Positions 12,560 to 28,790 of a stretch of DNA of 64,000 nucleotides are shown here, piece after piece. Position numbers and translations under genes: made by a program. The number at the start of each line of letters is the position of its first letter. Positions within the stretch are counted from its first letter, which is position 1. The DNA is from Escherichia coli (lineage in GTDB: Bacteria > Pseudomonadota > Gammaproteobacteria > Enterobacterales > Enterobacteriaceae). A model generated the notes under the pieces. The model was not told the DNA's origin. It was given only the letters and a program-made list of their open reading frames with translations, and did no database searches. The stretch is taken from assembly GCF_016903815.1 (NCBI RefSeq), contig NZ_CP069973.1. One strand, given 5' to 3'.

Positions 12560-12777
12560 CCATCAATCACCAGATGCTTCGTGCTGCACAGAACAAAGCA
12601 GTAATAGCCAGATTTATTGGTGATTCCAAAATGTGGCTTGAAGCAAATAAAGCGATGAAATCAGCTATCAACCTTCCGTGGTATCGCAGGAAATGAGTTT
12701 TACAGATAACTGGTCAGACGAAGAATTCATTCGTCAGATGAACAAAATGCTCAATCAGCACAAAGAACAGGAGAAAG

Positions 12778-13089
12778 ATGATGATTCTGACTCTGAATGA
12801 TAAGCGTGAAATATCGCAAATAATCGCAAGTTTTACTGATGAAGATTACGAACGAATCAACAGTGAAGTTGATCGCCTCTGCAAACGTTGCGACCCAATA
12901 AGCGAAATGCTTCGCTCATATAAACCAGATGAACACACTAAGGACGCTATCGACTGGCTGGAAGATGATGACTGTAACTATCAGGAAAAAGCCGCTGAAT
13001 GGTTCTGGGATGCAATAACCGAAAGAGTTAAGGCTGAATATGCCTTCGCAATATTCAAACGCAGACATATTTATGGAGAAGCTGCATGA
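12778..13089 (+). CDS. Hypothetical protein
   Basis: 103-aa ORF; stop overlaps the recT-like start. Confidence 0.4.
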   Translation: MMILTLNDKREISQIIASFTDEDYERINSEVDRLCKRCDPISEMLRSYKPDEHTKDAIDWLEDDDCNYQEKAAEWFWDAITERVKAEYAFAIFKRRHIYGEAA

Positions 13090-13997: not shown

Positions 13998-14463
13998 AAT
14001 TGCCAATGAATACGCAAAATTGATGGATTCAGATTTAGAACCAGAGATGATTGCTGACACAATAGAAGGCATGGAAGGAGAATTTACCGATAAAATAGAG
14101 CAACTTCTTGCCATTATTAAAAATGAATCTGGTTATGCTGAACGCCTCAAGGAAGAGGCAAAGTCACTGAATGAGCGAGCCGCAGTAATTCAAAATAAGA
14201 TTGAGAGCATCAAATCATATATAGCGTCATCGCTTGAAATGGTTGGCAAGAAAAAGATTCGAGCAGGTATTCACCAGGTAACAATCCGCAAACCGTCAGA
14301 AACTGTAGAAATCATCGACTCAAGCGCCCTTCCTCCTGAATACGTTGAGTTTGAAACGACAATTAAAGCCGACAAACTGGCAATCAAACACCAACTAAAA
14401 GCAGGAATAAATATCCCCGGCGCTCAACTCAAAGTTGGGAAACCTTCACTTCTTATCAAATAA
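13975..14463 (+). CDS. Hypothetical protein coupled to the recombinase
   Basis: 162-aa helical ORF overlapping the recT-like stop. Confidence 0.4.
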   Translation: MPVSKLYEIANEYAKLMDSDLEPEMIADTIEGMEGEFTDKIEQLLAIIKNESGYAERLKEEAKSLNERAAVIQNKIESIKSYIASSLEMVGKKKIRAGIHQVTIRKPSETVEIIDSSALPPEYVEFETTIKADKLAIKHQLKAGINIPGAQLKVGKPSLLIK

Positions 14464-14474
14464 CGGTATCGACT

Positions 14475-14789
14475 ATGAAAAAGACTCCATGGGAGAAATG
14501 GGAAGTCGATTTCTTGCGCGAGGTAGCGGCGACAATGCCAGTTGAAGTTATCGCTGAAAAACTGGAAAGGACTGAAAAAGCAGTAATGGCGAAAGCAACA
14601 AGGATTGGCGCTGACATTGTTAGCCGACTTCGTGGAAGACGATGGACAAGAGCCGAAGTATCACTTTTCGGTAAGTTCTCCGCAGAAGAAATAGCAATTG
14701 CAACCTGCCGCTCAATTTATTCAGTAAGAGCTATGCGATACAAGCTAAAAAAACTCGATGAAGAAAGAGCAGGCATACGAATAAATTAA
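14475..14789 (+). CDS. Hypothetical protein
   Basis: 104-aa ORF. Confidence 0.4.
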   Translation: MKKTPWEKWEVDFLREVAATMPVEVIAEKLERTEKAVMAKATRIGADIVSRLRGRRWTRAEVSLFGKFSAEEIAIATCRSIYSVRAMRYKLKKLDEERAGIRIN

Positions 14790-14805
14790 CATGGAGTAAT
14801 TAACA

Positions 14806-15087
14806 ATGAAGCTAAACATCGACCTTGGAAAATACGTTATTACCGGAACCAAACACGACCTGATTCTTAGTGAAAGAGGAATTATCAAAGAAGGCGAGAA
14901 TGCAGGGAAAGAAACACTAAGTCGTATCGGTTATTACAGCAAGTTTGAGCATCTGGTTAAAGAGTTATGCAACCGTGAAATCCTGTTATCTCAGGCGCAG
15001 ACACTACAGGATATTCAGCAGCATATCGAGACTTTAGGTGTATCACTTAGCACGGCTGTTGACCAGTTCGCGGAGAGTAAATCATGA
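14806..15087 (+). CDS. Hypothetical protein
   Basis: 93-aa ORF. Confidence 0.4.
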
Positions 15088-15488
15088 GAGGACTTGCATA
15101 CAATCCCGGCATTCTTCCGGCAGAAATGATTATTCGCCAACGCGTAAAGCCAATGCCATCGAGAGAGGAATTGCTTAAGAGAAATTCTTTTCCATCAGTG
15201 AATCAAAACAAATATCTGAATTCGATGTGGCGCAAAGGAGGCAAGCAGTGAGTAATTCCGCACGACTACAGCTTGGTTTTTCACCGCTATCAAAAACTAT
15301 CATGCTGGCAAAAATGCGCGATGTTGAAGGTGGACGTATGCGCGTTGGCAATGATCCAGGTCGTGATGTTACCAATGAGGCTGCTCAATTGGTGTGGCGA
15401 CTGGTCATGGCTGAAGGTGGTGAGATCGCGTGGGAACTTGATGATGGTTCTCGCATGGTGTTGAAGGCAGAGAAGCAGGAGACAACCA

Positions 15489-16181
15489 GTGAGCAAGATT
15501 GACTATCAGGCACTGCGTGATGTGGCAGTGAAAGCCGGTAAAGATAAGTGGCAAGCTAAAAAAATAAACGGTGATTTTTTCGTTATTCGTCACGGTAGTT
15601 ATACAAGACAGCATGGCTACACATTGTATCAACCCATTGCGGAGATTGATTGTAAGTCAGTCCGGGATTTTGTTGCCAAGGCTAATCCGGCTACCGTGCT
15701 TGCGCTTCTTGATGAACTGGAAGCTCAAAGCAAACGCATTGCAGAGCTGGAGAAAAAAGCTGCACCAGATTCGTTTGGCATCATCGGTGAAAATATTCGA
15801 ACACAGGATAATCGAATAACGTCAGACCCTATGTTTTGTGTGTATCAAAAGCGCGAAATCGTTGTTGATGCTGATTATGACTATGACCGGATTGTCTGGG
15901 TTGATGAAGATGGTAATGAAGCCAATAAACGCCAAAGTCGTCGTCTCGAACTACTTCACGAAAACTTTCGAGAGCCACAAGAAAAATGGCGGCGCGTTGC
16001 TGTGAAAGATATTGATGAATTCGTTACCTGCTGTTTCACCGAACAGGGTTGTAAAGACTACCTGGCAGCCAATGGTCACAATCTTCGCTTGCCATTTATA
16101 TATGTAAAAAGCGGTTTCAGGAACGCTGAATATATCGGCATAAGAAACTGGCTTGCTGGCATTCGCATCAAAGGAGAGTGA
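15489..16181 (+). CDS. Ead/Ea22-like protein
   Basis: 230 aa; composition and position resemble the lambdoid ea22 family; assigned from memory. Confidence 0.45.
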   Translation: MSKIDYQALRDVAVKAGKDKWQAKKINGDFFVIRHGSYTRQHGYTLYQPIAEIDCKSVRDFVAKANPATVLALLDELEAQSKRIAELEKKAAPDSFGIIGENIRTQDNRITSDPMFCVYQKREIVVDADYDYDRIVWVDEDGNEANKRQSRRLELLHENFREPQEKWRRVAVKDIDEFVTCCFTEQGCKDYLAANGHNLRLPFIYVKSGFRNAEYIGIRNWLAGIRIKGE

Positions 16182-16392
16182 TATGGCTATCGCTGCAAGT
16201 TACACCATGCATCTCTATTGTGATTGCCTCCAGTGTACAGATGGCAAATATAAGTCGCCAGACTTCGGTGAGTATATAGGTACGTCATGGGCTGGCTGTG
16301 CAAAAGAGGCGCGCAAGGATGGCTGGCGAATAAGCAAAGACAAAACGCGTGCTTTTGCGCCCGGGCATAAAGTTTTGAGGATTAACAAATGA
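16153..16392 (+). CDS. Hypothetical Cys-rich protein
   Basis: 79-aa ORF overlapping both neighbours. Confidence 0.35.
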   Translation: MLAFASKESDMAIAASYTMHLYCDCLQCTDGKYKSPDFGEYIGTSWAGCAKEARKDGWRISKDKTRAFAPGHKVLRINK

Positions 16393-17180
16393 CCACTTTA
16401 ACCGACAAAGAACTGATTAAAGAAATCAAAGAGCGCATAGGCAGCTTGGACGTTCGAGACAATATTGAGCGCCGTGCTTATGAAATTGCACTGGCATCGC
16501 TGGAAGCAGAGCCGATAGGTTTCCGTTGCAGGCGCAATGATAACCTTGGTGACTGGAGTTACGTATATCATCGAGAGCCAGATGATTTTGAGCGCAAACA
16601 TTTAGTGATAGAGGGCATTTACGCCTCCCCTCCAGCGCCAGTAGTACCGGAAGAAAAACCAATGCCTAATCCTCTTAGCATGTACGCGGTTGATGCTGTT
16701 GCCGCTATTGCAGAGGTGAGAGGCTGGAACGCCTGCCGCGCTGCCATGCTTCATAGTGCCGAACCTGCAAGTAATCATGAAGAGTTGCCGCTTGATTATC
16801 TCCAAGGTCAAAAAGATGGTCTTGAATGGGCTGCGCAGCTTGCAGAAGCAAATCACCCACAAACTGGCGACTGGCTTTACGATGACCCGCTGGAGCTGGC
16901 TAAAGCTATCAGAAAAGGTCCTGACATGCCCGAATTCGATGGACCAACTCCGGTGACTCCGGATAGTTGGATAAGCTGTAGTGATCGAATGCCGGAAGAC
17001 ACCAAAATGTTACTGGCATTTAGTCAAGGTCAAATAGTGGCAGCATATTGGAACTGGGTAGTGAGTCCAATTGATTACAAAAAATACAGAGCTTTCACAT
17101 ATTTATCAGGCAATATCTTGGATGACGTAACCCACTGGATGCCACTACCGGAACCGCCGCAGGAGGCTGACAATGGCTAA
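16389..17180 (+). CDS. DUF551-like phage protein
   Basis: C-terminal ...THWMPLPEPP is characteristic of DUF551 proteins. Confidence 0.5.
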   Translation: MTTLTDKELIKEIKERIGSLDVRDNIERRAYEIALASLEAEPIGFRCRRNDNLGDWSYVYHREPDDFERKHLVIEGIYASPPAPVVPEEKPMPNPLSMYAVDAVAAIAEVRGWNACRAAMLHSAEPASNHEELPLDYLQGQKDGLEWAAQLAEANHPQTGDWLYDDPLELAKAIRKGPDMPEFDGPTPVTPDSWISCSDRMPEDTKMLLAFSQGQIVAAYWNWVVSPIDYKKYRAFTYLSGNILDDVTHWMPLPEPPQEADNG

Positions 17181-17457
17181 TCTGCAACTGGCAGTGAACG
17201 GCGAATACTTCGACCAGATGAAGCGGGGCGAGAAAACGGAAGAGTATCGCCTGTGTAATGACTACTGGAATAAGCGAATTATGTTCCGGGAGTATGACCG
17301 CCTGATTATCACAAAGGGATATCCGAAGCGCGACGATTCCAGTCGCAGAATTGATGTTCCGTATGGTGGATATGAAATCAAGACAATCATACATCCACAC
17401 TTCGGTGATAAACCGGTAAAGGTGTTCGCGATAAAGGTGAATATCGGCAATGAATAA
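17173..17457 (+). CDS. Hypothetical protein
   Basis: 94-aa ORF, translationally coupled. Confidence 0.4.
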   Translation: MANLQLAVNGEYFDQMKRGEKTEEYRLCNDYWNKRIMFREYDRLIITKGYPKRDDSSRRIDVPYGGYEIKTIIHPHFGDKPVKVFAIKVNIGNE

Positions 17458-17529
17458 CATCCTCGCACTCGCGGGGATTTCTTTTATCTGAACTCGCTAC
17501 GGCGGGTTTTGTTTTATGGAGATGATAAA

Positions 17530-17697
17530 TGCACTTCCGAGTCACTGGTGAATGGAATGGAGAGCCATTCGACAGGGTTATAGAAGCAGAGGACATCAAC
17601 GACTGCTATAACCACTGGATGATATGGGCGCAGATAGCGCATGCAGACGTAACCAATATTCGAATTGAAGAACTGAAAGAACACCAAGACGCCTGAT
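17530..17697 (+). CDS. Small prophage ORF (55 aa), not on the ORF track
   Basis: My own translation MHFRVTGEWNGEPFDRVIEAEDINDCYNHWMIWAQIAHADVTNIRIEELKEHQDA. Confidence 0.35.
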
Positions 17698-17753
17698 GGC
17701 GGTTTTTTATTGCCTGATTTGCAGGTTCGATTCCCTATTCGGAGATAGCACTC

Positions 17754-17954
17754 ATGCAACACGAACTACAGCCTGATTCACTGGTTGATTTGAAATTCAT
17801 CATGGCCGATACTGGCTTTGGTAAAACCTTCATCTATGACCGGATTAAGTCCGGCGACCTTCCTAAAGCCAAAGTTATCCACGGACGAGCAAGATGGTTA
17901 TATCGTGACCATTGTGAATTTAAAAATAAGCTCTTAAGCCGCGCCAATGGGTAA
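17754..17954 (+). CDS. torI: Excisionase / recombination directionality factor, TorI type
   Basis: 66-aa excisionase-family HTH protein immediately inside attR; I recall it as matching K-12 TorI. Confidence 0.7.
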   Translation: MQHELQPDSLVDLKFIMADTGFGKTFIYDRIKSGDLPKAKVIHGRARWLYRDHCEFKNKLLSRANG

Positions 17955-18027
17955 AATAGCGGGTAAAATATTTCTCACATCTAAAAAACACCATTCCAAT
18001 CAATCCCCTGCCGCTTCAAGTAGATGT

Positions 18028-18042
18028 CTGCAGGGGACACCA
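18028..18042 (+). repeat. attR-like direct repeat: 15 bp identical to the 3-prime end of tRNA-Arg (argW), CTGCAGGGGACACCA
   Basis: Exact 15-mer also present at 28336-28350; lies between torI and the next integrase. Confidence 0.7.
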
Positions 18043-18206
18043 TCCCGCTGTACACCAACGTCTACCATTGTCTATAAATCCCATGTAAACATATAAAAAT
18101 AAAGAGATTTTATTCTCATGACGTCCATTTCCGTCTATTGAAATCAAGTAAATCTATGGGGCATAATTAGGGGCATTGCTGGTTCGATTGTATATGTGCC
18201 CCCAAC

Positions 18207-19493
18207 ATGTCCAGAAATACCCTCAACAAATTAACAGACCGTCAGTGCAAAGCAGCTAAGCCACGAGACAAAACTTATAAATTGTCTGATGGTGGTGGTC
18301 TTTATCTTGAAGTATCCCAGACCGGGTCGAAGTATTGGCGAATGAAGTATCGCCGCCCATCAGATAAGAAAGAAGACAGACTTGCTTTTGGTGTATATCC
18401 AACCATTAGCTTACAAGACGCCAGAGAAAAACGAGACAACGCCAAAAAGTTGTTAGTCAAGGGGATAGATCCCAAAGCAGAGCAAAGAGCAGCAAAAGCA
18501 GAAGAAAAAGGCGCATTCACTTTTGAGACAATAGGACGTCAATGGGTTGAAAGCCACCAGATGTGGAACGAAGACCACCGAAAACGCGTACTTAGAAGCC
18601 TTGAAATGTATATTTTCCCTCACATTGGCACTTCGGATATTCGCAAACTGGAGGCGATGACAATTTTACCTTTGTTTAAGAAGGTAGATGACGCCGGGAA
18701 ACACGATACAGCCAACCGACTTAAACAACGAGTTAAGGACATCATACATAGCGCCCGTCTGAGCGGCATTAAGACAGAAATCATCACGAATGATCTCGAT
18801 GTCCGGTTAATGCAATATGAAACTAAGCATCATGCCGCACTACATCCCAGAGATTTACCAGACTTTTTCACTCGATTGGGCAGCTTTAAAGGTAATCCTC
18901 TTACCCGCCTTGCCATTGAGCTAACCATGTTGACATTTGTTCGTTCAAGCGAGTTAAGGTTTGCCCGTTGGAAAGAGTTTGACCTTGATCGGGCTGAGTG
19001 GATTATCCCTAAAAAAAGAGAGCCTATCGATGGTGTGAGGTTTTCCACCCGTGGCACAAAAACGGGAAAAGACGAACATATCGTGCTTCTTAGCCGTCAG
19101 GCTGTTTCTATTGTAAAGCAGTTGAGAGAACTAAGCGGAAGCTACGATGTTGTGTTTCCGAATGAAAGAAACACCAAAGGCGTGATGAGTGAAAACACGG
19201 TAAACAAGGCATTACGCTTAATGGGCTATAACACGCAAGAGGACGTAACTGGACATGGATTCCGTGCCACAGCCTGTAGTTCCCTGATGGAGTCCGGTTT
19301 GTGGCAGGAGGACGCAGTAGAGCGCCAGATGAGCCACAAAGAATATAAAGACGTTAAAAGAGCCTACAAGCACAAGGCTGATTACTTAGAAGAGCGCAAA
19401 CTAATGCTTCAATGGTGGGCAGATTATCTGGACGCCAATCGAGAAATACATATAAGCCCTTACGAGTTCGGAAGGAGAACACGCCGTGACTAA
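18207..19493 (+). CDS. Tyrosine integrase, P4 family
   Basis: 428 aa; P4-type N-terminus (KLTDRQCKAAKPRDKTYKLSDGGGLYLEV) and C-terminal LMLQWWADYLD motif. Confidence 0.9.
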   Translation: MSRNTLNKLTDRQCKAAKPRDKTYKLSDGGGLYLEVSQTGSKYWRMKYRRPSDKKEDRLAFGVYPTISLQDAREKRDNAKKLLVKGIDPKAEQRAAKAEEKGAFTFETIGRQWVESHQMWNEDHRKRVLRSLEMYIFPHIGTSDIRKLEAMTILPLFKKVDDAGKHDTANRLKQRVKDIIHSARLSGIKTEIITNDLDVRLMQYETKHHAALHPRDLPDFFTRLGSFKGNPLTRLAIELTMLTFVRSSELRFARWKEFDLDRAEWIIPKKREPIDGVRFSTRGTKTGKDEHIVLLSRQAVSIVKQLRELSGSYDVVFPNERNTKGVMSENTVNKALRLMGYNTQEDVTGHGFRATACSSLMESGLWQEDAVERQMSHKEYKDVKRAYKHKADYLEERKLMLQWWADYLDANREIHISPYEFGRRTRRD

Positions 19494-20241
19494 GATGACA
19501 GGACTAGATGCGTTTTATAACGAGTCAGAAGATAAAATCTGGTTTGGTAATCTGATCAGCGAACTGGCAAGACTAAACAATGAAAATGAAAGAATGATCG
19601 CTGCCGCTATCTTAAGTAACTACAGATTGAGCAAAGCTAAACCAGATACTTTAGGGGGGCTGGGCTTTTATCAGTTCGATTGGGTATCAGGTTTTACAAC
19701 TAATGACGACTTTGAAAAGCAGTGTGTGGAGTTTTTAGGTCTTCTGGCTATGGGGCATGAATACAGGGAGAGCCCGATACCGGGGGAAGAAGGGACTTTC
19801 AACGTTAGGAAAGGGGAAGACTTTTTATATCACGATGATGAGGATGATTGGTATGGGTCTTACGATTCGTTTTATTTCAAGCGCTCCGAGGTTGTGAACT
19901 TCTTCCCAGAACTGGATATGAATGTTCCAGATAACGAACCAGAAATTGGAGCACTGTCAAAAAAAGTAGAAAGAGAACAAAACTGGAGAGGAAAAGATAC
20001 GGCTTTAAAGATGATCGCCGGAATGGCGATTGCCTTATTTGAATCAAGCAAAGATTTCCATAGTGGAGGAAACCTTAGTATCAATAGGGTTAGTGCCCAA
20101 GTAATAGAAAACAACATAATATTCGGGAACGATGAAGACAGCGATACCCACCCAGATACATTTCGGAGATTGCTAACGAACGCTTTGGATAAGTACGCCC
20201 CCAAATTTAAGAAAAAAGCAACCAAAAAGCGTCCAAAATAA
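19486..20241 (+). CDS. Hypothetical acidic protein coupled to the integrase
   Basis: 251-aa ORF; start overlaps the int stop by 8 bp. Confidence 0.45.
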   Translation: MTKMTGLDAFYNESEDKIWFGNLISELARLNNENERMIAAAILSNYRLSKAKPDTLGGLGFYQFDWVSGFTTNDDFEKQCVEFLGLLAMGHEYRESPIPGEEGTFNVRKGEDFLYHDDEDDWYGSYDSFYFKRSEVVNFFPELDMNVPDNEPEIGALSKKVEREQNWRGKDTALKMIAGMAIALFESSKDFHSGGNLSINRVSAQVIENNIIFGNDEDSDTHPDTFRRLLTNALDKYAPKFKKKATKKRPK

Positions 20242-20397
20242 AGGAAGGATGTTCCCAAATTGTGCGTTAGAACTAAAAAATAACGCCCAATTTGGGGTAA
20301 TTCTATTCCCAAAAATTTTTTCTCCAAATTCACAGAAAACTTAAAAAAACAATGATTTACTATCTCACATAGTCAAGCAACGTATTACGAGGTAGAT

Positions 20398-20589
20398 ATG
20401 AAAAAGTCGCTGATTCGGCTATCTGAGGTTTTGAAACGCACTGGCTATAGCAAGGCGTGGGTATATGCTCTGATGAGCCGAGGACAATTCCCCCAATCAG
20501 TCAAGATTGGTGCTCGCGCAATAGCTTTTATTGAAAGCGAGATCGATGACTGGATCGATCAACGTATAGCCGAATCGCGTAGTAACTAA
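20398..20589 (+). CDS. alpA: AlpA-family transcriptional regulator / excisionase
   Basis: 63 aa; RLSEVLKRTGYSKAWVYALMSRGQFPQSVKIGARAIAFIESEIDDWI is the classic AlpA HTH. Confidence 0.8.
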   Translation: MKKSLIRLSEVLKRTGYSKAWVYALMSRGQFPQSVKIGARAIAFIESEIDDWIDQRIAESRSN

Positions 20590-20637
20590 AGAACAGAAAC
20601 AAACAGGATACAAACAATACGTTATTAGGTATTAAGA

Positions 20638-20829
20638 ATGCAGTTGAAACCTACCAATCAAAAGCTGAACGTAACCCATGTTGATTTTGAAACCTTCGCG
20701 GCACTGATTAGATCAGAGCCACAAAAGGTGAGCACCAGCACCTGGGTTTATGATGTGAAATCCACCAGCGGTGGAAAAGCTATCGGCATTGCCTCTGGCG
20801 ATGATTACTTAGTAATAGATCTGATTTAA
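20638..20829 (+). CDS. Hypothetical protein
   Basis: 63-aa ORF. Confidence 0.3.
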   Translation: MQLKPTNQKLNVTHVDFETFAALIRSEPQKVSTSTWVYDVKSTSGGKAIGIASGDDYLVIDLI

Positions 20830-20910
20830 TCGCACAAAAATTGTAGAGTAATTTGGGGAGACAGGAAGTCTCCTCCATATTACATTTTGGTACAACAGTA
20901 AGGGAATAAA

Positions 20911-21105
20911 ATGATTAATTACCTGACCGCTAAAGACGCAGCAGAATATCTTGGCGTCTGTCTGTCACGCTTCTATCAGTTAAAGCGATATATCCGAAGC
21001 TTTCCTCCCTATATAAATCAGACCATCAATGGACGCAAGCGCCGGGTGTGGCTTGCCTCCAGCCTTGATCAATTTGCCGACAGATTTCTGGGGGGACGAA
21101 AATGA
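20911..21105 (+). CDS. Hypothetical small protein, possible HTH
   Basis: 64-aa ORF with LTAKDAAEYLGVCLSRFYQL (HTH-like). Confidence 0.4.
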   Translation: MINYLTAKDAAEYLGVCLSRFYQLKRYIRSFPPYINQTINGRKRRVWLASSLDQFADRFLGGRK

Positions 21106-21488
21106 GCACTCTTACACGCTCTCAGGTCGCCGCGAATATACGCGATATCCTACTAAGTGGCAGGAAGCTTACCCCAAAAGAGTTTGACGACATATTAAGG
21201 AAAGCCGGAAATCACGAACGTAGTCGCGTTTTAACGCTGTTACGCAACGATTGGGGAATTCCTGTTGAGCAGTTTAAAACAGAGGCGTATCACGTCACAG
21301 AACGCAATTTAGAAGCATACCACAGCGATAAAGACGAAACATTGAAGATCTGGAGGACGAACGCCAGATATGTAAAGACATTGCGTAAGGTAAACATAAC
21401 GTTGTCGTTGTTGCGTGGGCTGGTGGGTAAAGTGCCTGAAGACACGCTTAGAACTGTTTACAAGGGTATTGAAACCAAATACCTGTGA
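21102..21488 (+). CDS. Hypothetical protein
   Basis: 128-aa ORF, 4-bp overlap with the upstream gene. Confidence 0.4.
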   Translation: MSTLTRSQVAANIRDILLSGRKLTPKEFDDILRKAGNHERSRVLTLLRNDWGIPVEQFKTEAYHVTERNLEAYHSDKDETLKIWRTNARYVKTLRKVNITLSLLRGLVGKVPEDTLRTVYKGIETKYL

Positions 21489-21556
21489 TTGACAAAGCAG
21501 AAAGCCGACTTTGCGAGAGTCGGCTTTGAAGCAATTGAAATATATGAACTTTACAC

Positions 21557-22609
21557 ATGGAATTATACGATAAAGACGCGAGTCTATCCACAAAATCACA
21601 AGCCGTAATCAATCACATCAATGGTCGCACATTAGCTTATGTGAGATCAGTTACGCACAAACGTAATGAATTAAAGGCGGAGAATAAACGCCAATCATCA
21701 AAGGCTAACCACTGCATACCACCAGCTTGGACAAAGAAGAAATGGCGTACAATGAGGCGAGCTTTGTTTACTCTGGATGTCGAATCAACTAGTGGTATCC
21801 CCTACTCCTTTACCTTCAGACCCGTTAAGGGAACAACGCCAGAGAAATTCAACAAAGCGTTAAAGGCACTTACCAGATGGTTGACTTCGAAAGGCAATCA
21901 GTGGGTTTACGTCATGGAGTGGGCTCAACACCAGTCAGAGCCGCATGTACACGCAATAATTATGGTGAACGAAAGAAGCATTAATGGGCAAGCAGGCAAA
22001 ATTGTCAGCAAATGGGTAACACTGGCAAACAATGCAATCCCATCAAATGTTCCTCCCCAGTGGGATCTAGATTTGAAAGGTCAGCAATATTCAGAGCCTA
22101 CAAGGTGTATAGGTAAACAGATTGATTACATGGCAAAACCCGAAACTAAGTTAAATGACTTTAATAGAGAGGCGAGCAAGAGCCTATATGATTGGTCAGA
22201 TGCCAACGTTTGGGGTTATTCGAATGGCTGGGCGCGGCATGAGATAAAAAAAGAAACACTTTCTATCACTGGCTTTCATGCTGTAAGACGCATACTAAAA
22301 GCCATTCAGGCATCAAGGAAAGACAACTACAAAGTTAAGCGACAGATACAGCGTACATTGAAACGACAAGACATAAATCGCTCACCAATCACCCCGTTCC
22401 AAGCACCGTTAATTAGCAAACACGATTGGGATTTATCAGTGATAGCGGTCACCAAAGAGGCAGAGACAGAGCGCAGGGAGTTACTATCCTCACAGACAAT
22501 AAACTCGAACAAAGTACAAACCCACCCGCTGTTAAGGATGTTAAGAAAAGCACGAGTGAGAGCATCCAGAGCCAGAAGAGAAAGCGGAGGTTATGACCAT
22601 TACTACTAG
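21557..22609 (+). CDS. Putative rolling-circle replication initiator (HUH endonuclease)
   Basis: 350 aa with an HUH-like motif (EPHVHAIIMV) and tyrosine-rich region; family assignment is from motif only. Confidence 0.45.
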   Translation: MELYDKDASLSTKSQAVINHINGRTLAYVRSVTHKRNELKAENKRQSSKANHCIPPAWTKKKWRTMRRALFTLDVESTSGIPYSFTFRPVKGTTPEKFNKALKALTRWLTSKGNQWVYVMEWAQHQSEPHVHAIIMVNERSINGQAGKIVSKWVTLANNAIPSNVPPQWDLDLKGQQYSEPTRCIGKQIDYMAKPETKLNDFNREASKSLYDWSDANVWGYSNGWARHEIKKETLSITGFHAVRRILKAIQASRKDNYKVKRQIQRTLKRQDINRSPITPFQAPLISKHDWDLSVIAVTKEAETERRELLSSQTINSNKVQTHPLLRMLRKARVRASRARRESGGYDHYY

Positions 22610-23407
22610 TAGTGACAGATCGTGACAAGGCAGAGCAAAAAACGACCAATATAAGAGAAATATCCCTGCCCAATCGCCAAAAGCGCGGAGCGCGGAGCGC
22701 GGCAAGCGCCGCGAGAGGCGCAAGAAGGCGAACCTATCCATTGAAACGGTCAGAAGAGCGCATCGCGCTCGATGACCGAAGTCCCCACTAACACCGTTAA
22801 CGAAAGATCAAAGTCTTAGAAAAAAATGACGTTTCTTTGAAGGGCTTCCATCCGTAAAAATCAAATTTTGAGATAAAGTACTTATAGAAATTAATCACTC
22901 TATAAGAGTGAGTTGACGTGAGTTTGAAGTGAGCAACATATTAAAAATATATATAATAATCAAACATATAATAACAACTACTGAGCAAAAATCACCAGAA
23001 AACAACGTCAACGTAACGTCACTCTGTAAGCACTTTTTCAGTCACTTTTTGGGTTGAATACACGTATAAATCCCCAACCATGAAATTTGAGCGCGTAAGC
23101 ACGACTCTGAAAGGCTTTTTATCTTTTAACCATTTAATATACCTGAGGTATTGAAGAAGATTCTGAGACATATACTAGAACTTTACCGTGCACGACTAAC
23201 AACATAAACGTTATATTTATATATAAATCAATGAGATAAATACATCCCCATCCAAAAAACAAGCATAACGCAAAATTGCGTTATCAACTTAAAAGGTACG
23301 ATTGAATCTGACAGTCTGCTCTGAGCGAAATGTGGGCACGTTCACCATAAGTCTCCAGATTGAAACGAAATGATAGTGTTAAATGTTCGATAGTTACTTT
23401 TCTAAGC

Positions 23408-24400
23408 TCAACGTTCGTAATAGTAATCCGACACCTCAGTAAAATCTATTTCCTCCCTAGAAAGTAATGATTCCATCTCATCTAGTTTATCGATTTGAGG
23501 CAAAACACTTGTTGGTGAAATCACAACATTAAAGTCCTCATTATATCGGTGACCTACCCTTGTGAGCTCTTTACCTAATTGCAACAATATATAATCACGT
23601 AAAATAAGTTGATTCCGTCTAAATCGAATAAGACGATAGTAATGGAAGAAATCAGAACATTTTGATGAATCATAATTTCTACCATTCCACCCGGTTTTCC
23701 TCGTAGCTCGGAATAATGCTTGCTCTTGCGTATTTTTCCAAATGCTAAAATCAAAGTGACTTTTCGGGTTAGGATTTTCGTATGTTGCTTGAGGATAAAA
23801 ATTAGTAACACCAAATTGATGCTTGTCAATGATCTTTAAAGTCCGATTTTGTTCAGACAACATCCGCCTTAAGGACCTAGGAATTTCGAAACGCATTAGT
23901 TTGTTTTTATCCAAGATTCTTAATTCTCTTGGAAGCATCTCATGATCCCGTTCTAAATATCTTTCACACCGTTTCGGCACATACTGAAAATACACTGAAA
24001 AAAAACAAAATATATTATCAGAAACGAGAGGAGTAATATGTATTTTTTCTTGCTCAGGAACGTTTTGAACAAAATAGTATGCCGTTCCTTGCCAAATCAA
24101 CGATTGCGCTACTGCCTCCACCAATTCACGTATTGTTTCATCTACCGAGTATTTCCTATATCTAGCTTGTAAATTTCCAAACATTTTACGTATGAGTTCT
24201 TCGTCGTTAGTTTCGACTTGAAACAAATTGGTATCACCGTGATTTACAAAATTAAAAACTCTAGCAAAATCCTCATAAAACATCCTTTGATAGAAACCTG
24301 GTCGTTCATTCTTAGACTTGGTCAATAGTCTATCAACAAAACTTAATTGCTCAGGATCGACGCTATAACCGTAAAGGGGTATATTCTTGATAATTTTCAT
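23408..24400 (-). CDS. Unclassified 330-aa soluble protein, downstream gene of the cargo operon
   Basis: Long ORF with AAGGA Shine-Dalgarno; start ATG overlaps the upstream stop as ATGA; no TM segment and no catalytic motif recognised. Confidence 0.6.
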   Translation of the reverse strand: MKIIKNIPLYGYSVDPEQLSFVDRLLTKSKNERPGFYQRMFYEDFARVFNFVNHGDTNLFQVETNDEELIRKMFGNLQARYRKYSVDETIRELVEAVAQSLIWQGTAYYFVQNVPEQEKIHITPLVSDNIFCFFSVYFQYVPKRCERYLERDHEMLPRELRILDKNKLMRFEIPRSLRRMLSEQNRTLKIIDKHQFGVTNFYPQATYENPNPKSHFDFSIWKNTQEQALFRATRKTGWNGRNYDSSKCSDFFHYYRLIRFRRNQLILRDYILLQLGKELTRVGHRYNEDFNVVISPTSVLPQIDKLDEMESLLSREEIDFTEVSDYYYER

Positions 24401-26874
24401 TCAAAATCCTTATCGTATTCCACGCCAAAACGACGAGCCAACTCACTAACATGGTAATCGATCTTGAAGTCAATTTGCTCGAGTTGCGGGAAAATTTCGA
24501 GAGCACAAAAGAGATGCGATGCATCTGAATGGGAGTTTAAGAACTCTCTGACAACTTTGTTCGTATGAGATTTCCCTCGATTCATTCCCATTTGATCGCT
24601 AAAGCCATCATGTCTTGCGCGGCGCTCAAATTCCATTTTCCAGTTAAGACGAATCATATCTCTCGGTGATGCGCACAAGCTGAAATTGCGCGGATTTGAA
24701 AGAATCATCATTCTCTTCAAATACTGCTGTTTGTTGGGAACAGACTCGAGCCAAGACTTAAACCTATCAAGTACTGTTTTAGATAGTTTTGCATTATCGA
24801 AATAAGCACTGTAAAGGATAGCAAAACCTAGAACTGACATCAGATCGTTGATCGCGGATGAAAGGAGATGCAGTCGAAACTCGTTGTTTATATCGAGTTT
24901 CGGATCTACAAATTTGGTATCTGATGCCAGCAATGAGAGAACCATGAACATAGGGAATACCTTGCTCAGTTTATTTTCATCATTCTGTTCAAGCGCATGT
25001 ATACATTCCTCAGCCAACTCAAAATATATCTGTCCAAAATGATCCGGTAGTTCATCATCTTGCTCTTGTTCAATGATATGTCCCACAATTTCCACCCTAC
25101 CAAGAATAGCTATAGCTTCATCCTGTGTAACGACAAACTGTTTGAGCATTTCAGCAATATTAATTTCTGGTAATGCGTATAGCTTTTCAGAGTAGTGCTC
25201 GTACTTTCTGTATCTCTCCAAGAGCAGAGAAAGTTCATTAAACCAATGGGGAAACTTCAAATGATTATGTAGGCTAGCGAGAACGACTTGCGTTGCGGCT
25301 TCCGGCATCTTCATGTTTATCAGTGAGTTAACGAAATCTGGAACCATGTTTACGTGAAAATCGCATACTTCTGGCAGAATTTTAGAATATTGTTGTAATA
25401 ACTTCTGAACCGCCAACTGCTGGACGTACTTTGGTTTGGATAATCTCTGTCCTTCAATCTCTTTTTCGAATTCGATACGTTCTACGATAAAGGCCAACTC
25501 AACCTGCAGAAAAGCAGGCAAAGTGTGTAGAGAGGTCTCTGTCCAGATATCATCTTTAAAGAACTGCTCCAATTCTTTCTCAAAAGTAATCATGCGGCGT
25601 AACATTTCAAGGCAAAGATTGCTGCCTAATGCAGCCCATGCATCCGCAATTCCAACTTTTATCACCTTTTCCTCAAAATAATTAACGACATCAGACGGTG
25701 TAAAGGCTTTTTCAATGATCGTCTTCATTTTCCGAAGTTCACGTATACCAATATCGAACTGAAACTGTTGTGCATAAGTTAATATACGAGATGAGAATAG
25801 ACTGATGAGATCCAACCCGAGCTTGAAATCACCGGCTTTGAATGCAAGTTCAATATGGCCTACCAACCTATTGATAATTTCATTCTCTAACCAAAGATAA
25901 TTTGGTTCTTCTTCAACCGTTAATTGGCTCCTTGTTTTTAAAGCAATGGATGTTACACTGTCGCCAGCTAAGAACCATTGCTTATGTTTTATTCGTCTAG
26001 GGAACCAGTAACTTTGATAATCAATTCTGTGTTTCTGATTAAGGTAATGAAGAAGTAATGCCGAATAAACATTACTGAGAGCAGGTAAATTATCTCCGAG
26101 TCCTACTTTTTCACATATCAGGCGATCATCAATGTAGTTTAACTGCTCAAAGGCCAAATGTGCGGCTTTAGAGTGATGATTAGCTAAAGATACTGAATTC
26201 TTGGGATTAGACGCACCTTCGATGTGTCGTGCAATTCGTGGGAGTATTTCACTTCGGGCTAACTGATTTAGGTCAAAAAAATTGAATAATCTTTGACCTA
26301 ATGGGAACAGAGCTAAGGAACTAACAAGTGTCAGCAATGTTCCCATTGCATAAACGAAAAGACCGGGTTCAACCCCGAACAAGTGGAGAGCAGTTGCACT
26401 AAGACAAAACACCGCAGAAAGCACTAAAGTCCGCGAATACACATTACCTACCTGCTCGGTAGTAAGCATTTGTATAATATCTCGCCGAAGTCTGGTATAT
26501 CCTGTACTTAGAATGATACCTATTGTAGCAAAGTATATTGAAAATATAGCGGTAAGTATCTGTGCGTACAACCTAAGTTGATCAATATTAAATTTTTTTT
26601 CATCATAGCTAAGAGGATGAAGCAAAATCGTATTATTCCGAATATAATCTTCAACAAAACCCAGTGCAAATAACGTTAATATGACCCATAACAAATTTTT
26701 TAAACCTACCAACGCAAAAGACATAAAAACATGAGCGTTAGACTTAGCTTTAAAAACAGACGTACGATGTATGTATGACGCACGTTCTAAAATAAATCTA
26801 ACCCTCACAAGATCTGTTCTTAATTTCCAGAACCACTTTTGAGAAATAAGCCAAACCTTCATTATATCAATCAA
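24397..26874 (-). CDS. Unclassified 825-aa membrane-anchored protein (about four N-terminal TM helices plus a roughly 630-aa helical cytoplasmic region)
   Basis: Uninterrupted 2.5-kb ORF in AT-rich DNA; hydrophobic segments near residues 50-74, 102-124, 148-168 and 172-192; no Walker or nuclease motif seen. The track start is TTG; the first ATG is at 26862. Confidence 0.6.
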   Translation of the reverse strand: MIDIMKVWLISQKWFWKLRTDLVRVRFILERASYIHRTSVFKAKSNAHVFMSFALVGLKNLLWVILTLFALGFVEDYIRNNTILLHPLSYDEKKFNIDQLRLYAQILTAIFSIYFATIGIILSTGYTRLRRDIIQMLTTEQVGNVYSRTLVLSAVFCLSATALHLFGVEPGLFVYAMGTLLTLVSSLALFPLGQRLFNFFDLNQLARSEILPRIARHIEGASNPKNSVSLANHHSKAAHLAFEQLNYIDDRLICEKVGLGDNLPALSNVYSALLLHYLNQKHRIDYQSYWFPRRIKHKQWFLAGDSVTSIALKTRSQLTVEEEPNYLWLENEIINRLVGHIELAFKAGDFKLGLDLISLFSSRILTYAQQFQFDIGIRELRKMKTIIEKAFTPSDVVNYFEEKVIKVGIADAWAALGSNLCLEMLRRMITFEKELEQFFKDDIWTETSLHTLPAFLQVELAFIVERIEFEKEIEGQRLSKPKYVQQLAVQKLLQQYSKILPEVCDFHVNMVPDFVNSLINMKMPEAATQVVLASLHNHLKFPHWFNELSLLLERYRKYEHYSEKLYALPEINIAEMLKQFVVTQDEAIAILGRVEIVGHIIEQEQDDELPDHFGQIYFELAEECIHALEQNDENKLSKVFPMFMVLSLLASDTKFVDPKLDINNEFRLHLLSSAINDLMSVLGFAILYSAYFDNAKLSKTVLDRFKSWLESVPNKQQYLKRMMILSNPRNFSLCASPRDMIRLNWKMEFERRARHDGFSDQMGMNRGKSHTNKVVREFLNSHSDASHLFCALEIFPQLEQIDFKIDYHVSELARRFGVEYDKDFE

Positions 26875-27055
26875 GTGATACCTGCCTTCTCATCTCTACA
26901 TGCAACATAAAAATGCTTACTATGGTGGCAAACAAAATCAAGAATCATATGTTTGAACACTTTTTACGCACGAATTATCCGGTGTAAGATACTTATAGTC
27001 AAATGGCAGGGCTAATCTCATCTGTATTGAGCTATTAACAGCCATATGTAAGACT

Positions 27056-27084
27056 AAGAAACGCGCCCAGCAAAGGCGCGTTCT
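27056..27084 (-). terminator. Hairpin terminator after the small minus-strand ORF
   Basis: ACGCGCC-TTTGCTG-GGCGCGT stem-loop followed by a T-rich tract on the minus strand. Confidence 0.4.
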
Positions 27085-27264
27085 GCATCAGGTAAGTTTG
27101 CTGGGGTCTACGGTTTCCATCCAATCTGGAGCAATTCCCAAACGTTCCGCTATCTCTTCGTTGGTCATGTCTTCAGTTGAGAAATTAGCCAGAGAATCGT
27201 TAACTTCAGGATAGTCAGGGGAGAGTAACAGGTATTCCCGCAACGCTTTCAGATCTTTTTCCAT
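27085..27264 (-). CDS. Small ORF (59 aa) upstream of the cargo operon, not on the ORF track
   Basis: My own translation MEKDLKALREYLLLSPDYPEVNDSLANFSTEDMTNEEIAERLGIAPDWMETVDPSKLT; followed on the minus strand by a hairpin. Confidence 0.3.
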
Positions 27265-27431
27265 TTTAACGCTCCTTGTTTATTGACAGTCGAACGATGG
27301 TGAAGATTCTTGCCATCTCAAGTACAGGCAAGAAAATCCACCAGAACACCAAATTATCTCATAAGGTTAAATCGGTGTCGGGCTATTTCTTTCGGCTAGG
27401 TGAGTGTACCGCCTTAACCACCGGCAATTAT

Positions 27432-27564
27432 CATTGTCTCAATTGGGTATACCGTAATGACAAGGTGATACAAAGTCTCAATAGGGTTGTATAGGAACAT
27501 TTTGACTACACAAAATGCATTATGTATCATTTGCACTTATATTCACAACCCTATTGAGACAATG
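27432..27564. promoter_or_regulatory. res-like repeat cluster directly upstream of the serine recombinase gene
   Basis: 16-bp inverted repeat GTCTCAATAGGGTTGT (27475-27490) / ACAACCCTATTGAGAC (27545-27560) plus a partial direct copy CATTGTCTCAAT at 27432-27443. Confidence 0.45.
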
Positions 27565-27566
27565 CA

Positions 27567-28193
27567 ATGAACGTTAGAATTTACTGCCGAGCATCAACTG
27601 AGGGGCAACACGCTGATCGAGCACTTACCAGCCTACGTGAATTTTCAAAATCAAAAGGCTGGCAGATTGCAGGAGAGTATATAGAAAATGCTAGCGGGGC
27701 GAAGCTTGAGCGCGTAGAGCTTATGCGGCTATTGTCTGAAGCCCAGTCCGGCGATCTGTTGCTAGTGGAAGCTATAGATCGTCTGAGTCGCCTAGAACAT
27801 AGCGCATGGGTCGAACTGAAAGATACGCTCAACCGAAAAGGGTTAATCATCGTATCAATGGATTTACCAACGAGCTGGCAGATGGTCGAGATGGCAGGCA
27901 ATGACCTAACCAGCGGCATCCTGAGAGCCGTAAATGCCATGTTGATTGATATCCTTGCCACAATGGCACGGCAGGATTACGAAACACGTCGTAAACGCCA
28001 ACAGCAAGGCATTGAGCGAGCTAAAAGCGAAGGAATATACATTGGCAGGGAGAAAAATCAGGAAGCCCGAGAGATCGTTAGAGAGATGTTGGAGCAAGGA
28101 GTAAAACCTGAACTCATCATGAAGGCAGCAGGAATCAGCCGAGCGACTTACTACCGTATAAAAAGTGAGCTGTCAGTCGTAAAATCAGAATAA
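27567..28193 (+). CDS. Serine recombinase (resolvase/invertase family)
   Basis: 208 aa; N-terminal VRIYCRASTEGQ catalytic-serine motif and C-terminal HTH. Confidence 0.85.
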   Translation: MNVRIYCRASTEGQHADRALTSLREFSKSKGWQIAGEYIENASGAKLERVELMRLLSEAQSGDLLLVEAIDRLSRLEHSAWVELKDTLNRKGLIIVSMDLPTSWQMVEMAGNDLTSGILRAVNAMLIDILATMARQDYETRRKRQQQGIERAKSEGIYIGREKNQEAREIVREMLEQGVKPELIMKAAGISRATYYRIKSELSVVKSE

Positions 28194-28327
28194 CCTTTGA
28201 AAGGTCGTCAGGCTTGTTTCATCTGCTAAAAGCCAGCATTTCTGACCATAATACCTGGGGGCACCTACTGGGGCACCCACCAAAATCGAAAGACAAATAA
28301 GTTATAATTCAATCTGTTAGTTTACTT

Positions 28328-28350
28328 TTCGATTCCTGCAGGGGACACCA
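28328..28350 (+). repeat. attR direct repeat: 23 bp identical to the argW 3-prime end, TTCGATTCCTGCAGGGGACACCA
   Basis: Matches the recalled 3-prime end of E. coli tRNA-Arg (argW); shares a 15-mer with 18028-18042. Confidence 0.8.
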
Positions 28351-28790
28351 GATACCCTTCAAACCAAATCTACCTTCACCCCGTAAAAGATGGGTTTGGC
28401 GCACACTAGCCCTATATCTACTCATTTTTACTGCAACAGGTTGAAATCTCAGCACTGTCAGAAAGCGCTGATGACTAAACAGCCCTGGGCCGGGCGATGT
28501 AACCATCATACAGAATCCTGATAGCGAAATATGGCGTGACTCGATACTTCACTCTGCAATGCATTCCTTGATGAATTCGCAGGCCCGTGATACTCGGGAC
28601 AGGTCGCTGAATGACGACAATGTCCTGGAAATCAGCGAACCGCGTATCCGGAGTACATTTGAGCGACTGTACCAGAACATGAATGAGGCGTTTGGATTAG
28701 GTGATTATTAGTTGGGCTAAGCATTTTTGTATTATTATTTTCCGGTTGAGGGATATGGAGATATCGACAACAACCGGAAAAAGTTTACGT

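What the first reader, a model, noticed from the sequence alone, without database searches (positions are those of the whole stretch)
18028..28350. Tandem integration at the argW site: two elements sharing tRNA-Arg 3-prime repeats
A 15-mer (CTGCAGGGGACACCA, 18028-18042) and a 23-mer (TTCGATTCCTGCAGGGGACACCA, 28328-28350) both match the 3-prime end of argW as I recall it. The first lies directly after the prophage excisionase and directly before a P4-type integrase; the second ends the island just before the csc genes. This fits a lambdoid prophage and a second integrase island inserted in tandem at one tRNA site, with the intact argW presumably left of the window.
Basis: partly seen in the sequence, partly recalled or inferred. 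Interest (0 to 1): 0.5.

Follow-up and report, generated by a model that had tools for sequence, protein, structure and literature searches.

The report
Prophage and island tandem at argW
Two separate mobile elements, a P22-like prophage and a 10.3-kb integrase island, sit one after the other at the E. coli argW tRNA gene; this layout is ordinary, but the island carries an undescribed gene pair, one of which has the fold of a phage portal protein.

Summary
The 15-mer (18028-18042) and the 23-mer (28328-28350) are exact copies of the last 15 and 23 nt of argW. In a genome 100% identical to the window, intact argW and intS lie 21.2 kb left of the window.

Left element: a 39.2-kb P22-like prophage with the known KplE1/Sf6/HK620 IntS-TorI module (torI 17754-17954).

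Right element: a 10,308-bp island (18043-28350). It has its own P4-type integrase, an AlpA-like excisionase candidate, a HUH Rep, a serine recombinase and its own conserved arm-site repeats.

Among 5,426 complete E. coli genomes all four junction states occur, and the best matches are identical to the predicted junctions:
- empty site: 1415
- phage only: 372
- island only: 196
- tandem: 35

Four genomes have the reverse order. Distribution suggests the island came first.

Tandem accretion at a tRNA gene, and variability at argW, are already known, so the finding is ordinary. The island family appears undescribed. It has a swappable cargo slot, here holding a widespread gene pair: a membrane-anchored helical-repeat protein and a protein with a portal-like predicted fold. 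Its function is unknown. No excised island form was found.

The parts
1..18042 (.). Right-hand 18 kb of a 39.2-kb P22-like prophage (lysis, Q, nin, replication, cI/cro and early-left genes). The window starts inside it; argW (attL) and intS lie 21.2 kb to the left.
   Evidence: The prophage measures 39,208 bp from core to core in NZ_CP103521.1, which is 100% identical to the window. Annotated genes include terminase, portal, gp5-family capsid, gp4, gp10, ejection proteins and tailspike.
17719..17734 (+). 16-nt copy of argW positions 46-61 (T-stem and T-loop), upstream of torI. In argW it is contiguous with the 15-mer core, so the torI cassette splits a 30-nt argW 3' block.
   Evidence: It is identical in Sf6, HK620 and a KplE1-like prophage. 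0.002 such matches are expected by chance. It overlaps the promoter and cII site annotated in HK620.
17754..17954 (+). torI, the excisionase (recombination directionality factor) of the KplE1/HK620/Sf6 recombination module.
   Evidence: RefSeq annotates it as WP_001163428.1 TorI. The DNA is 97-100% identical to the excisionase region of Sf6, HK620 and Kapi1. PMC2951348 and PMC3509656 describe the module.
18028..18043 (+). Hybrid att site: attR core of the prophage, which is also the left boundary of the island. The 15 nt equal argW 61-75; with the T at 18043 it equals the published 16-nt KplE1 core CTGCAGGGGACACCAT.
   Evidence: Matches to phage genomes stop at 18042/18043. The core sequence is quoted in PMC2951348.
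18043..28350 (+). 10,308-bp argW-specific integrative island, including its right-hand 23-nt repeat.
   Evidence: It is precisely absent from 1415 genomes (argW followed directly by 28351 onward). It lies directly at argW in 196 genomes. It has no match in the phage or plasmid collections.
18158..18202 (.). Candidate arm-type integrase sites of the island's left arm: GGGGCA at 18158 and 18170 (12 bp apart) and an inverted copy at 18197-18202.
   Evidence: Together with the two copies in the right arm, 5 copies lie in the two island arms against 0.07 expected (P about 1e-8). They are positionally invariant in five island variants and absent from the phage att arms.
18207..19493 (+). Island tyrosine integrase, P4-type architecture.
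   Evidence: Pfam Arm-DNA-bind_3, Phage_int_M and Phage_integrase. NCBIfam PRK09692 domain. 31% identity to IntS over the full length.
19486..20241 (+). Conserved island backbone gene, 251 aa, no detectable family.
20398..20589 (+). AlpA-like helix-turn-helix protein, the island's candidate excisionase/regulator.
   Evidence: PHROG 'excisionase and transcriptional regulator', E = 3e-11 and 7e-10.
20911..21488 (+). Two conserved backbone genes: a second small HTH protein (20911-21105) and a 128-aa protein of unknown function (21102-21488).
   Evidence: Both are conserved in the variants.
21557..22609 (+). HUH-type rolling-circle Rep/relaxase-like protein (HVHAII and DYMAK motifs).
   Evidence: Pfam REP_ORF2-G2P, E = 1.5e-6; marginal match to the MobA/VirD2 nuclease domain, E = 0.022. 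RefSeq names it 'rolling circle replication-associated protein'.
22610..23124 (.). Conserved non-coding backbone after Rep, with TGACGT-type direct and inverted repeats. Possible origin (inferred).
23125..27056 (.). Variable cargo slot of the island family.
   Evidence: Backbone homology in four variants and in the O157:H7 remnant stops at 23120/23124 and resumes at 27057-27338. Other variants carry a Sll1717-family P-loop ATPase, a ParA-like protein, a GTPase plus a 152-aa protein, or other hypotheticals.
24397..26874 (-). Cargo gene 1: 825-aa protein with 4 N-terminal transmembrane helices and an all-alpha helical-repeat domain of about 600 aa.
   Evidence: Homologues are 63-74% identical across several classes of Proteobacteria.
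23408..24400 (-). Cargo gene 2: 330-aa protein whose predicted structure has a phage-portal-like fold. It overlaps gene 1 by 4 nt.
27088..27264 (-). Conserved 58-aa backbone gene at the right edge of the cargo slot.
27567..28193 (+). Serine recombinase (resolvase/invertase type), part of the conserved backbone.
   Evidence: PHROG DNA invertase, E = 1.6e-40; NCBIfam serine-recombinase families.
28258..28275 (+). Candidate arm-type sites of the island's right arm: GGGGCA at 28258 and 28270, 12 bp apart.
28328..28350 (+). Island attR: 23-nt direct repeat of the argW 3' end (positions 53-75). It also serves as a secondary attB for IntS phages.
   Evidence: Four genomes have intS and a prophage directly after this repeat.
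28351..28790 (.). Chromosomal sequence that follows argW at empty sites. It contains a DUF4942 gene fragment (28529-28711), probably the remnant of an older island.

Best explanation
Two independent integrative elements occupy the argW attachment site in tandem.

The left element is a 39.2-kb P22-like prophage. It uses the known IntS/TorI (KplE1, HK620, Sf6) recombination module and recombines within the 15/16-nt core at the 3' end of argW. The right element is a 10.3-kb island. It has its own P4-type integrase, an AlpA-like candidate excisionase, its own arm-type sites, and a 23-nt copy of the argW 3' end at its far side.

Each integration rebuilds argW on the left and leaves a partial copy of it on the right. 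This gives three sites: complete argW, the 15-mer and the 23-mer.

Shown here: the repeats, the exact boundaries, the independence of the two elements, and the existence of all occupancy states.

Inferred: the island was resident first, and IntS phages of different kinds later inserted between argW and the island.

Inferred and untested: IntS plus TorI can remove the phage and restore the argW-island junction, and the island integrase can still excise the island.
For: - Exact repeats.
- argW and intS lie 21.2 kb left of the window in a 100% identical genome.
- Phage genomes (Sf6, HK620, Kapi1 and others) match up to 18042/18043 and no further.
- The published 16-nt KplE1 core is identical to 18028-18043.
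- Chimeric junction queries against 5,426 complete genomes gave argW|island 196, torI-core|island 35, argW|post-island 1415 and torI-core|post-island 372. The best hits were 100% identical to the predicted junctions.
- A genome with the same flanking protein accessions carries the island alone, at 99.99% identity.
- Tandem genomes carry different prophages. Only 3 genomes share this one, and another has a KplE1-like lambdoid phage.
- The integrases are 31% identical.
- Five GGGGCA arm repeats are invariant in five island variants and absent from the phage arms.
Against: - No excised (circular) island junction was found in the viral, metagenome or genome contig collections, so current island mobility is unproven.
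- The junction structure would be the same whichever element arrived first, provided the crossover lies in the shared 15 nt. The order therefore rests on distribution only.
- In the source-identical genome the prophage carries an IS2 insertion and may be defective.
Confidence: 0.9

Rival explanations
1. There is one composite element. The P4-type integrase at 18207 is a second recombinase of the prophage, and the 15-mer is an internal relic rather than a boundary.
For: The two integrases are homologous over their full length and both target the same tRNA 3' end. In O157:H7 the two parts are fused into one block by a deletion.
Against: The island occurs alone at argW in 196 genomes, and the phage alone in 372. 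Free phage genomes end at the core. The prophage has its own intS next to argW. The island has its own arm sites.
Confidence: 0.02
2. The order was reversed: the phage lysogenised argW first, and the island later integrated into the 15-nt core of the phage's attR.
For: A crossover within the shared 15 nt would give exactly the observed junctions. Secondary use of a partial argW copy does happen: IntS phages sit in the island's 23-mer in 4 genomes.
Against: The island is 99.98-100% identical in island-only and tandem genomes that share the same flanking protein accessions, while the phages to its left differ. The middle site lacks 8 of the 23 nt (the T-loop part) that every island copy keeps at its right end.
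Confidence: 0.08
3. The island is a fixed relic that can no longer move. Its repeats record an old insertion, and it now spreads only by descent and by homologous recombination of its flanks.
For: No circular junction was found in any collection. All copies are chromosomal and at argW. Decayed remnants exist in O157:H7 and in strain S163-2.
Against: The integrase, the AlpA-like gene, Rep, both repeats and the arm sites are intact and conserved at 93-97% identity across variants in different backgrounds. The cargo slot has been exchanged repeatedly.
Confidence: 0.3

Closest known systems
KplE1 (CPS-53) / HK620 / Sf6 IntS-TorI recombination module at argW
   Same: Same 16-nt core and same torI gene and position next to attR. 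intS is on the other side next to argW. The DNA of the torI-attP region is 97-100% identical.
   Different: The rest of this prophage is a different mosaic P22-like genome, shared in full by only 3 genomes. Here its attR abuts another mobile element instead of the chromosome.
Tandem accretion of integrative elements at one tRNA gene, and the 'highly variable argW-dsdCXA island' of E. coli (Moritz and Welch 2006, cited in PMC3032704 and PMC7545054)
   Same: There are several elements in series, each bounded by a copy of the tRNA 3' end. The csc genes lie between the argW region and a truncated dsdX.
   Different: I could not read the 2006 paper, so I do not know whether this particular island was described there.
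P4-type (CP4-57-like) integrase genomic islands, and integrative mobilizable elements that encode a Rep-like relaxase
   Same: A P4-type integrase lies next to the tRNA gene, with an AlpA-like regulator, small size, a HUH protein and accessory cargo.
   Different: There is no P4 primase-helicase, sid, psu or delta, no PICI packaging or capsid genes, and no recognisable relaxase or oriT. A serine recombinase is part of the conserved backbone.
Phage portal proteins (HK97, SPP1, P22 and GTA type)
   Same: The predicted fold of the 330-aa cargo protein matches portals in two independent structure searches.
   Different: It belongs to no portal sequence family. It is shorter. No terminase or capsid gene is nearby. 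It is always paired with, or fused to, a membrane-anchored helical-repeat protein.

Membership tests
Integrative element at a tRNA gene (attL/attR formed by duplication of the tRNA 3' end) | Direct repeats identical to the 3' end of the target tRNA at both boundaries | tested here: met
   The prophage is bounded by argW on its left and by the 15-nt copy (18028-18042) on its right. The island is bounded by that 15-mer here (by full argW in island-only genomes) and by the 23-nt copy (28328-28350).
Integrative element at a tRNA gene (attL/attR formed by duplication of the tRNA 3' end) | An empty site exists whose sequence equals the flanks joined with one copy of the repeat | tested here: met
   1415 genomes have argW followed directly by 28351 onward, and the best hits are 100% identical to the predicted junction.
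Integrative element at a tRNA gene (attL/attR formed by duplication of the tRNA 3' end) | Own integrase gene next to one end | tested here: met
   For the phage, intS lies 162 bp after argW. For the island, int starts 164 bp after the left boundary.
Integrative element at a tRNA gene (attL/attR formed by duplication of the tRNA 3' end) | An excised circular form (attP junction) is detectable | tested here: inconclusive
   For the phage family the attP is known from free phage genomes. For the island, no match to the predicted junction was found in the viral, metagenome or genome contigs. Assemblies are a weak test.
KplE1/HK620/Sf6 IntS-TorI recombination module | 16-nt core CTGCAGGGGACACCAT at both ends | tested here: met
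   18028-18043 equals the core given in PMC2951348. The attL core lies in argW and is followed by TTTATCAG.
KplE1/HK620/Sf6 IntS-TorI recombination module | torI and intS lie on opposite sides of attP, and so at opposite prophage ends | tested here: met
   torI is at 17754-17954 next to attR. intS is next to argW, 39 kb away.
KplE1/HK620/Sf6 IntS-TorI recombination module | TorI-dependent excision by IntS | not testable with these tools
   This needs an excision assay.
P4-type tyrosine integrases | Arm DNA-binding domain (DUF4102 type), central domain and catalytic domain | tested here: met
   PF13356 (E = 1.4e-28), PF22022 (E = 1.9e-18) and PF00589 (E = 1.5e-16).
Phage satellites (P4-like, PICI, cfPICI) | Genes for exploiting a helper phage (sid/psu/delta, capsid or small-terminase remodelling, head genes) and a primase-type replicon | tested here: not met
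   No PHROG, Pfam or NCBIfam hit of that kind was found for any island protein. The replication protein is HUH type.
Integrative mobilizable elements | A relaxase and oriT that allow mobilisation by a conjugative element | tested here: inconclusive
   The HUH protein gives only a marginal match to the MobA/VirD2 nuclease domain (E = 0.022). Its better match is to the Rep ORF2/G2P family (E = 1.5e-6). No oriT was identified.
Phage portal protein | Membership of a portal sequence family | tested here: not met
   None of the 43 family members matches a portal family in Pfam, and the window's 330-aa protein has no PHROG match.
Phage portal protein | Portal fold | tested here: met
Phage portal protein | Encoded with terminase and capsid genes in a head-morphogenesis module | tested here: not met
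   The neighbours are the 825-aa membrane protein and mobile-element or defence-type genes in E. coli, Pectobacterium and Hyphococcus.
Known anti-phage defence systems (PADLOC-DB v2) | Match to a model of a known or candidate defence protein | tested here: not met
   The window's two cargo proteins gave no hit. Among the eight cargo proteins from other variants the only hit was one weak partial match, ParA-like protein to PDC-M28B.

The most novel reading that the evidence does not exclude
The island belongs to an undescribed family of small argW-specific elements whose swappable slot carries anti-phage cargo. In this window the cargo would be a new, widely spread two-protein system: a portal-fold protein bound to a membrane-anchored helical-repeat protein. 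It would detect or block a step of phage head assembly or DNA packaging or entry by imitating the portal vertex. A secondary point: a phage inserted between argW and the island removes the T-loop part of the island's left site, and so could lock the island in place until the phage leaves.
Probability: 0.2. Interest if true: 0.7.

Novelty: new member of a known kind. Interest (0 to 1): 0.3.

Why it matters
The tandem layout itself adds little. It is a clean, fully resolved example of serial insertion at a tRNA hot spot that was already known to be variable.

It is useful in three ways:
- It gives exact boundaries, and therefore PCR targets, for two elements found in clinical E. coli lineages.
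- It shows that the partial argW copy left by one element serves as a landing site for another.
- It defines a small island family with a conserved frame and an exchangeable slot, which is a practical place to look for new accessory or defence genes.

The cargo pair is conserved at 50-74% identity across several classes of Proteobacteria and includes a portal-fold protein outside any virion gene set. It is the one item here that could lead to something new.

Tried and rejected
- A tRNA scan of the window found no gene, so argW had to be taken from matching genomes.
- Strain 7/2 (NZ_CP023820.1) was first used as a proxy for the source. Its prophage differs from the window in the first ~8 kb, so the exact match NZ_CP103521.1 was used instead.
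- A 13-nt argW match on the minus strand at 44822-44834 lies inside yfdV and is taken as chance.
- The island DNA has no match in the phage or plasmid collections.
- The two cargo proteins and the 251-aa backbone protein gave no hit in PHROGs, PADLOC, NCBIfam or Pfam. PDB sequence searches of the cargo families, Rep and the 251-aa protein also found no significant match.
- Cargo proteins of other island variants gave no real PADLOC hit, so the 'defence slot' idea is only an inference.
- The predicted circular junction of the island was not found in viral, metagenome or genome contigs, with a strict and with a relaxed pattern.
- Literature searches for the protein accessions and for portal-like non-viral proteins found nothing relevant.
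- The key paper on the argW-dsdCXA region (PMC1698345) is not held.
- P4-like satellite or PICI identity was rejected for lack of any hallmark gene.

Full report
**1. The observation**

CTGCAGGGGACACCA is at 18028-18042 and TTCGATTCCTGCAGGGGACACCA at 28328-28350, both on the + strand. The 15-mer occurs only at these two places even when two mismatches are allowed. Shuffled sequence gives 0.06 expected matches.

The window has no tRNA gene. I therefore took argW (tRNA-Arg, anticodon CCT, 75 nt) from genomes that contain the window sequence. The two repeats are exact copies of argW positions 61-75 and 53-75.

**2. Where argW and the prophage integrase are**

The window is 100% identical to NZ_CP103521.1 (strain 2779, minus strand) over every stretch compared. 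In that genome intact argW lies at window coordinates -21240 to -21166, and intS follows it.

From core to core the prophage measures 39,208 bp. Its annotated genes are those of a P22-like phage: terminase, portal, gp5-family capsid, gp4, gp10, ejection proteins, tailspike and an O-antigen-modifying esterase next to intS. It also carries an IS2 insertion.

**3. The left element uses a known recombination module**

- The 66-codon gene at 17754-17954 is annotated TorI.
- The region 17600-18043 is 97-100% identical to the excisionase-attP region of Sf6, HK620, Kapi1 and other phages. Those matches stop at 18042/18043, the end of the core.
- The published KplE1 core, CTGCAGGGGACACCAT, equals 18028-18043 (PMC2951348).
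- Placing torI and intS on either side of attP, and so at opposite ends of the prophage, is the described hallmark of this module. It is what is seen here.

**4. The right element is a separate island**

The island spans 18043-28350 (10,308 bp). Its parts are:

| Coordinates | Strand | Feature | Evidence |
|---|---|---|---|
| 18207-19493 | + | Integrase with Arm-DNA-bind_3, Phage_int_M and Phage_integrase domains | |
| 20398-20589 | + | AlpA-like helix-turn-helix protein matching excisionase/regulator families | |
| 21557-22609 | + | HUH rolling-circle Rep-like protein | |
| 23408-26874 | - | Two-gene cargo | |
| 27567-28193 | + | Serine recombinase | |

- The island integrase is only 31% identical to IntS, although the two align over their full length.
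- The island ends carry five copies of GGGGCA: pairs 12 bp apart in each arm, plus one inverted copy. About 0.07 copies are expected by chance. All five are invariant in position in five island variants whose surrounding bases differ, and they are absent from the phage att arms. I read them as the island integrase's arm-type sites. This is an inference.

**5. Population test**

I built the four possible junctions as chimeric queries and searched 5,426 complete E. coli genomes.

| Junction | State | Genomes |
|---|---|---|
| argW joined to the island's left end | island only | 196 |
| torI-core joined to the island | tandem | 35 |
| argW joined to the sequence after the island | empty site | 1415 |
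| torI-core joined to the sequence after the island | phage only | 372 |

In every class the best hits are 100% identical to the predicted junction. This is the in-silico equivalent of showing that each element inserts and is absent precisely, independently of the other.

**6. Order of insertion**

The junctions cannot settle the order. A crossover inside the shared 15 nt gives the same product whichever element arrives first. The distribution does suggest an order:

- Strain 50579417 has the same flanking protein accessions and the island at 99.99% identity, but no phage.
- Tandem genomes carry different phages to the left of the same island. Only 3 genomes share the window's prophage. Strain 7/2 has a related but different P22-like phage. 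SCEC020023 has a KplE1-like lambdoid phage.

The simplest reading is a resident island with repeated later lysogenisation at the regenerated argW.

**7. Other arrangements at the site**

- Four genomes have the reverse order, with intS and a prophage directly after the island's 23-mer.
- One of them, strain S163-2, holds three elements in series. The partial argW copy left by the island is therefore a usable target for IntS phages.
- In O157:H7 the array has collapsed. A deletion joins a P22-like remnant to the island's Rep C-terminus, leaving cargo, recombinase and csc.

**8. A possible consequence (inferred, untested)**

The middle site keeps only 15 nt of argW. The T-loop part (TTCGATTC), which every island copy keeps in its right-hand repeat, has been replaced there by phage DNA. 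If the island integrase exchanges strands in the T-loop, as many integrases of this kind do, the island cannot excise while the phage sits beside it. Excision of the phage would restore the island's left site exactly.

**9. Is the island mobile now?**

This is unknown.

- For mobility: its recombination genes, repeats and arm sites are intact, and they are conserved at 93-97% identity in variants found in different chromosomal backgrounds.
- Against: all copies are at argW. None is in the phage or plasmid collections. The predicted circular junction is absent from three large contig collections.

The island lacks the hallmark genes of P4-like satellites and PICIs. The relaxase signal of its HUH protein is marginal, so I do not file it under either group.

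**10. The island family has a swappable slot**

Backbone homology stops at 23120-23124 and resumes at 27057-27338. Other variants carry in this slot a Sll1717-family P-loop ATPase, a ParA-like protein, a GTPase with a small partner, or other unknown proteins. None matches a known defence model. The idea that this is a defence slot rests on pattern alone.

**11. The cargo in this window**

- *Sequence.* The 825-aa and 330-aa genes overlap by 4 nt. Neither has any family match.
- *Distribution.* Homologues are 63-74% (825 aa) and 52-63% (330 aa) identical across Enterobacterales, Vibrio, Halomonas, Nitrosomonas and alphaproteobacteria. They have nearly constant lengths and lie on the same contigs.
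- *Pairing.* The pair is adjacent in Pectobacterium, in an integrase island with toxin-antitoxin genes and, in one strain, SIR2 genes. It is also adjacent in Hyphococcus, near a large serine recombinase. One natural 1145-aa protein fuses the two.
- *The 825-aa protein.* It has four N-terminal transmembrane helices and a helical-repeat domain.

I conclude that this is a portal-like fold of moderate confidence in a non-virion context. Its function is unknown.

**12. A third argW fragment**

TTGCAGGTTCGATTCC (argW 46-61) lies at 17719-17734, just upstream of torI. In argW it is contiguous with the 15-mer core. The phage attP region therefore holds the last 30 nt of argW, split by a 293-bp segment that contains torI. 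The fragment is identical in Sf6, HK620 and a KplE1-like prophage. It overlaps the integration promoter and cII site annotated in HK620. It may be a trace of an ancestral, longer attP identity block. I found no mention of it in the papers I could read.

**13. Verdict**

The arrangement is a textbook kind: serial insertion at a tRNA gene, at a locus already called highly variable. Interest in the finding as posed is low to moderate. The island family and its portal-fold cargo are the parts worth a follow-up.

Noticed in passing
window 17719-17734: A 16-nt exact copy of argW positions 46-61 lies just upstream of torI. It is contiguous in argW with the 15-mer core 293 bp downstream, so the torI cassette appears inserted into a 30-nt argW 3' block. 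It is identical in Sf6, HK620 and a KplE1-like prophage, and it overlaps HK620's annotated cII-dependent integration promoter.
   Followed up: partly
window 23408-26874 (minus strand): The island cargo is a two-gene module with no known family: an 825-aa protein (4 TM helices plus a helical-repeat domain) and a 330-aa protein with a portal-like predicted fold. The pair is conserved at 50-74% identity across several classes of Proteobacteria, is adjacent in other genera, and is fused in one natural 1145-aa protein (P0367).
   Followed up: partly
window 23125-27056; loci L005-L008, L013: The island family keeps a 93-97% identical frame but exchanges the content of one slot. Variants carry a Sll1717 P-loop ATPase, a ParA-like protein, a GTPase plus a 152-aa protein, two hypotheticals, or a 470-aa hypothetical in O157:H7. 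None matches a known defence model.
   Followed up: partly
window 28351-28790: A DUF4942 gene fragment lies between the island's right repeat and cscB. The same sequence follows argW directly in 1415 genomes with an empty site, so it looks like a fixed remnant of an older island.
   Followed up: partly
L013 (NC_013008.1, O157:H7 TW14359) 4624-13249: In O157:H7 genomes the tandem array has collapsed. The order is argW, intS and a P22-like remnant that ends in a truncated tail-needle gene, joined by a deletion to the C-terminal part of the island Rep, then a different cargo gene, the recombinase and csc. A further prophage with its own integrase sits just upstream of argW.
   Followed up: partly
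L017 (NZ_CP058709.1, strain S163-2) 7334-14619: Three elements lie in series at argW: an IntS phage remnant, an island remnant cut by IS1, and then a second intS with a different prophage inserted in the island's 23-nt repeat. The same island-then-phage junction occurs in 4 genomes.
   Followed up: partly
window 18181-18189: GGTTCGATT, identical to the argW T-loop region (positions 51-59), lies in the island's left arm between the GGGGCA repeats. It is conserved in all five variants examined. It could be chance or a core-like site.
   Followed up: no
NZ_CP103521.1 1535175-1536403 (about 9-10 kb left of the window start): An IS2 copy sits inside the tail/ejection gene region of the prophage in the source-identical genome, so this prophage may be unable to make particles.
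   Followed up: no
window 22680-23030: The conserved non-coding stretch after Rep holds a GC-rich AGCGCGG repeat cluster and several TGACGT direct and inverted repeats. It could be a replication or transfer origin.
   Followed up: no
window 44822-44834 (minus strand): A 13-nt match to argW positions 43-55 lies inside the yfdV coding sequence. I judge it a chance match.
   Followed up: yes
window 33918-34136: dsdX is truncated at its 5' end next to cscR. This is the known replacement of dsdC and the start of dsdX by the csc sucrose genes.
   Followed up: no
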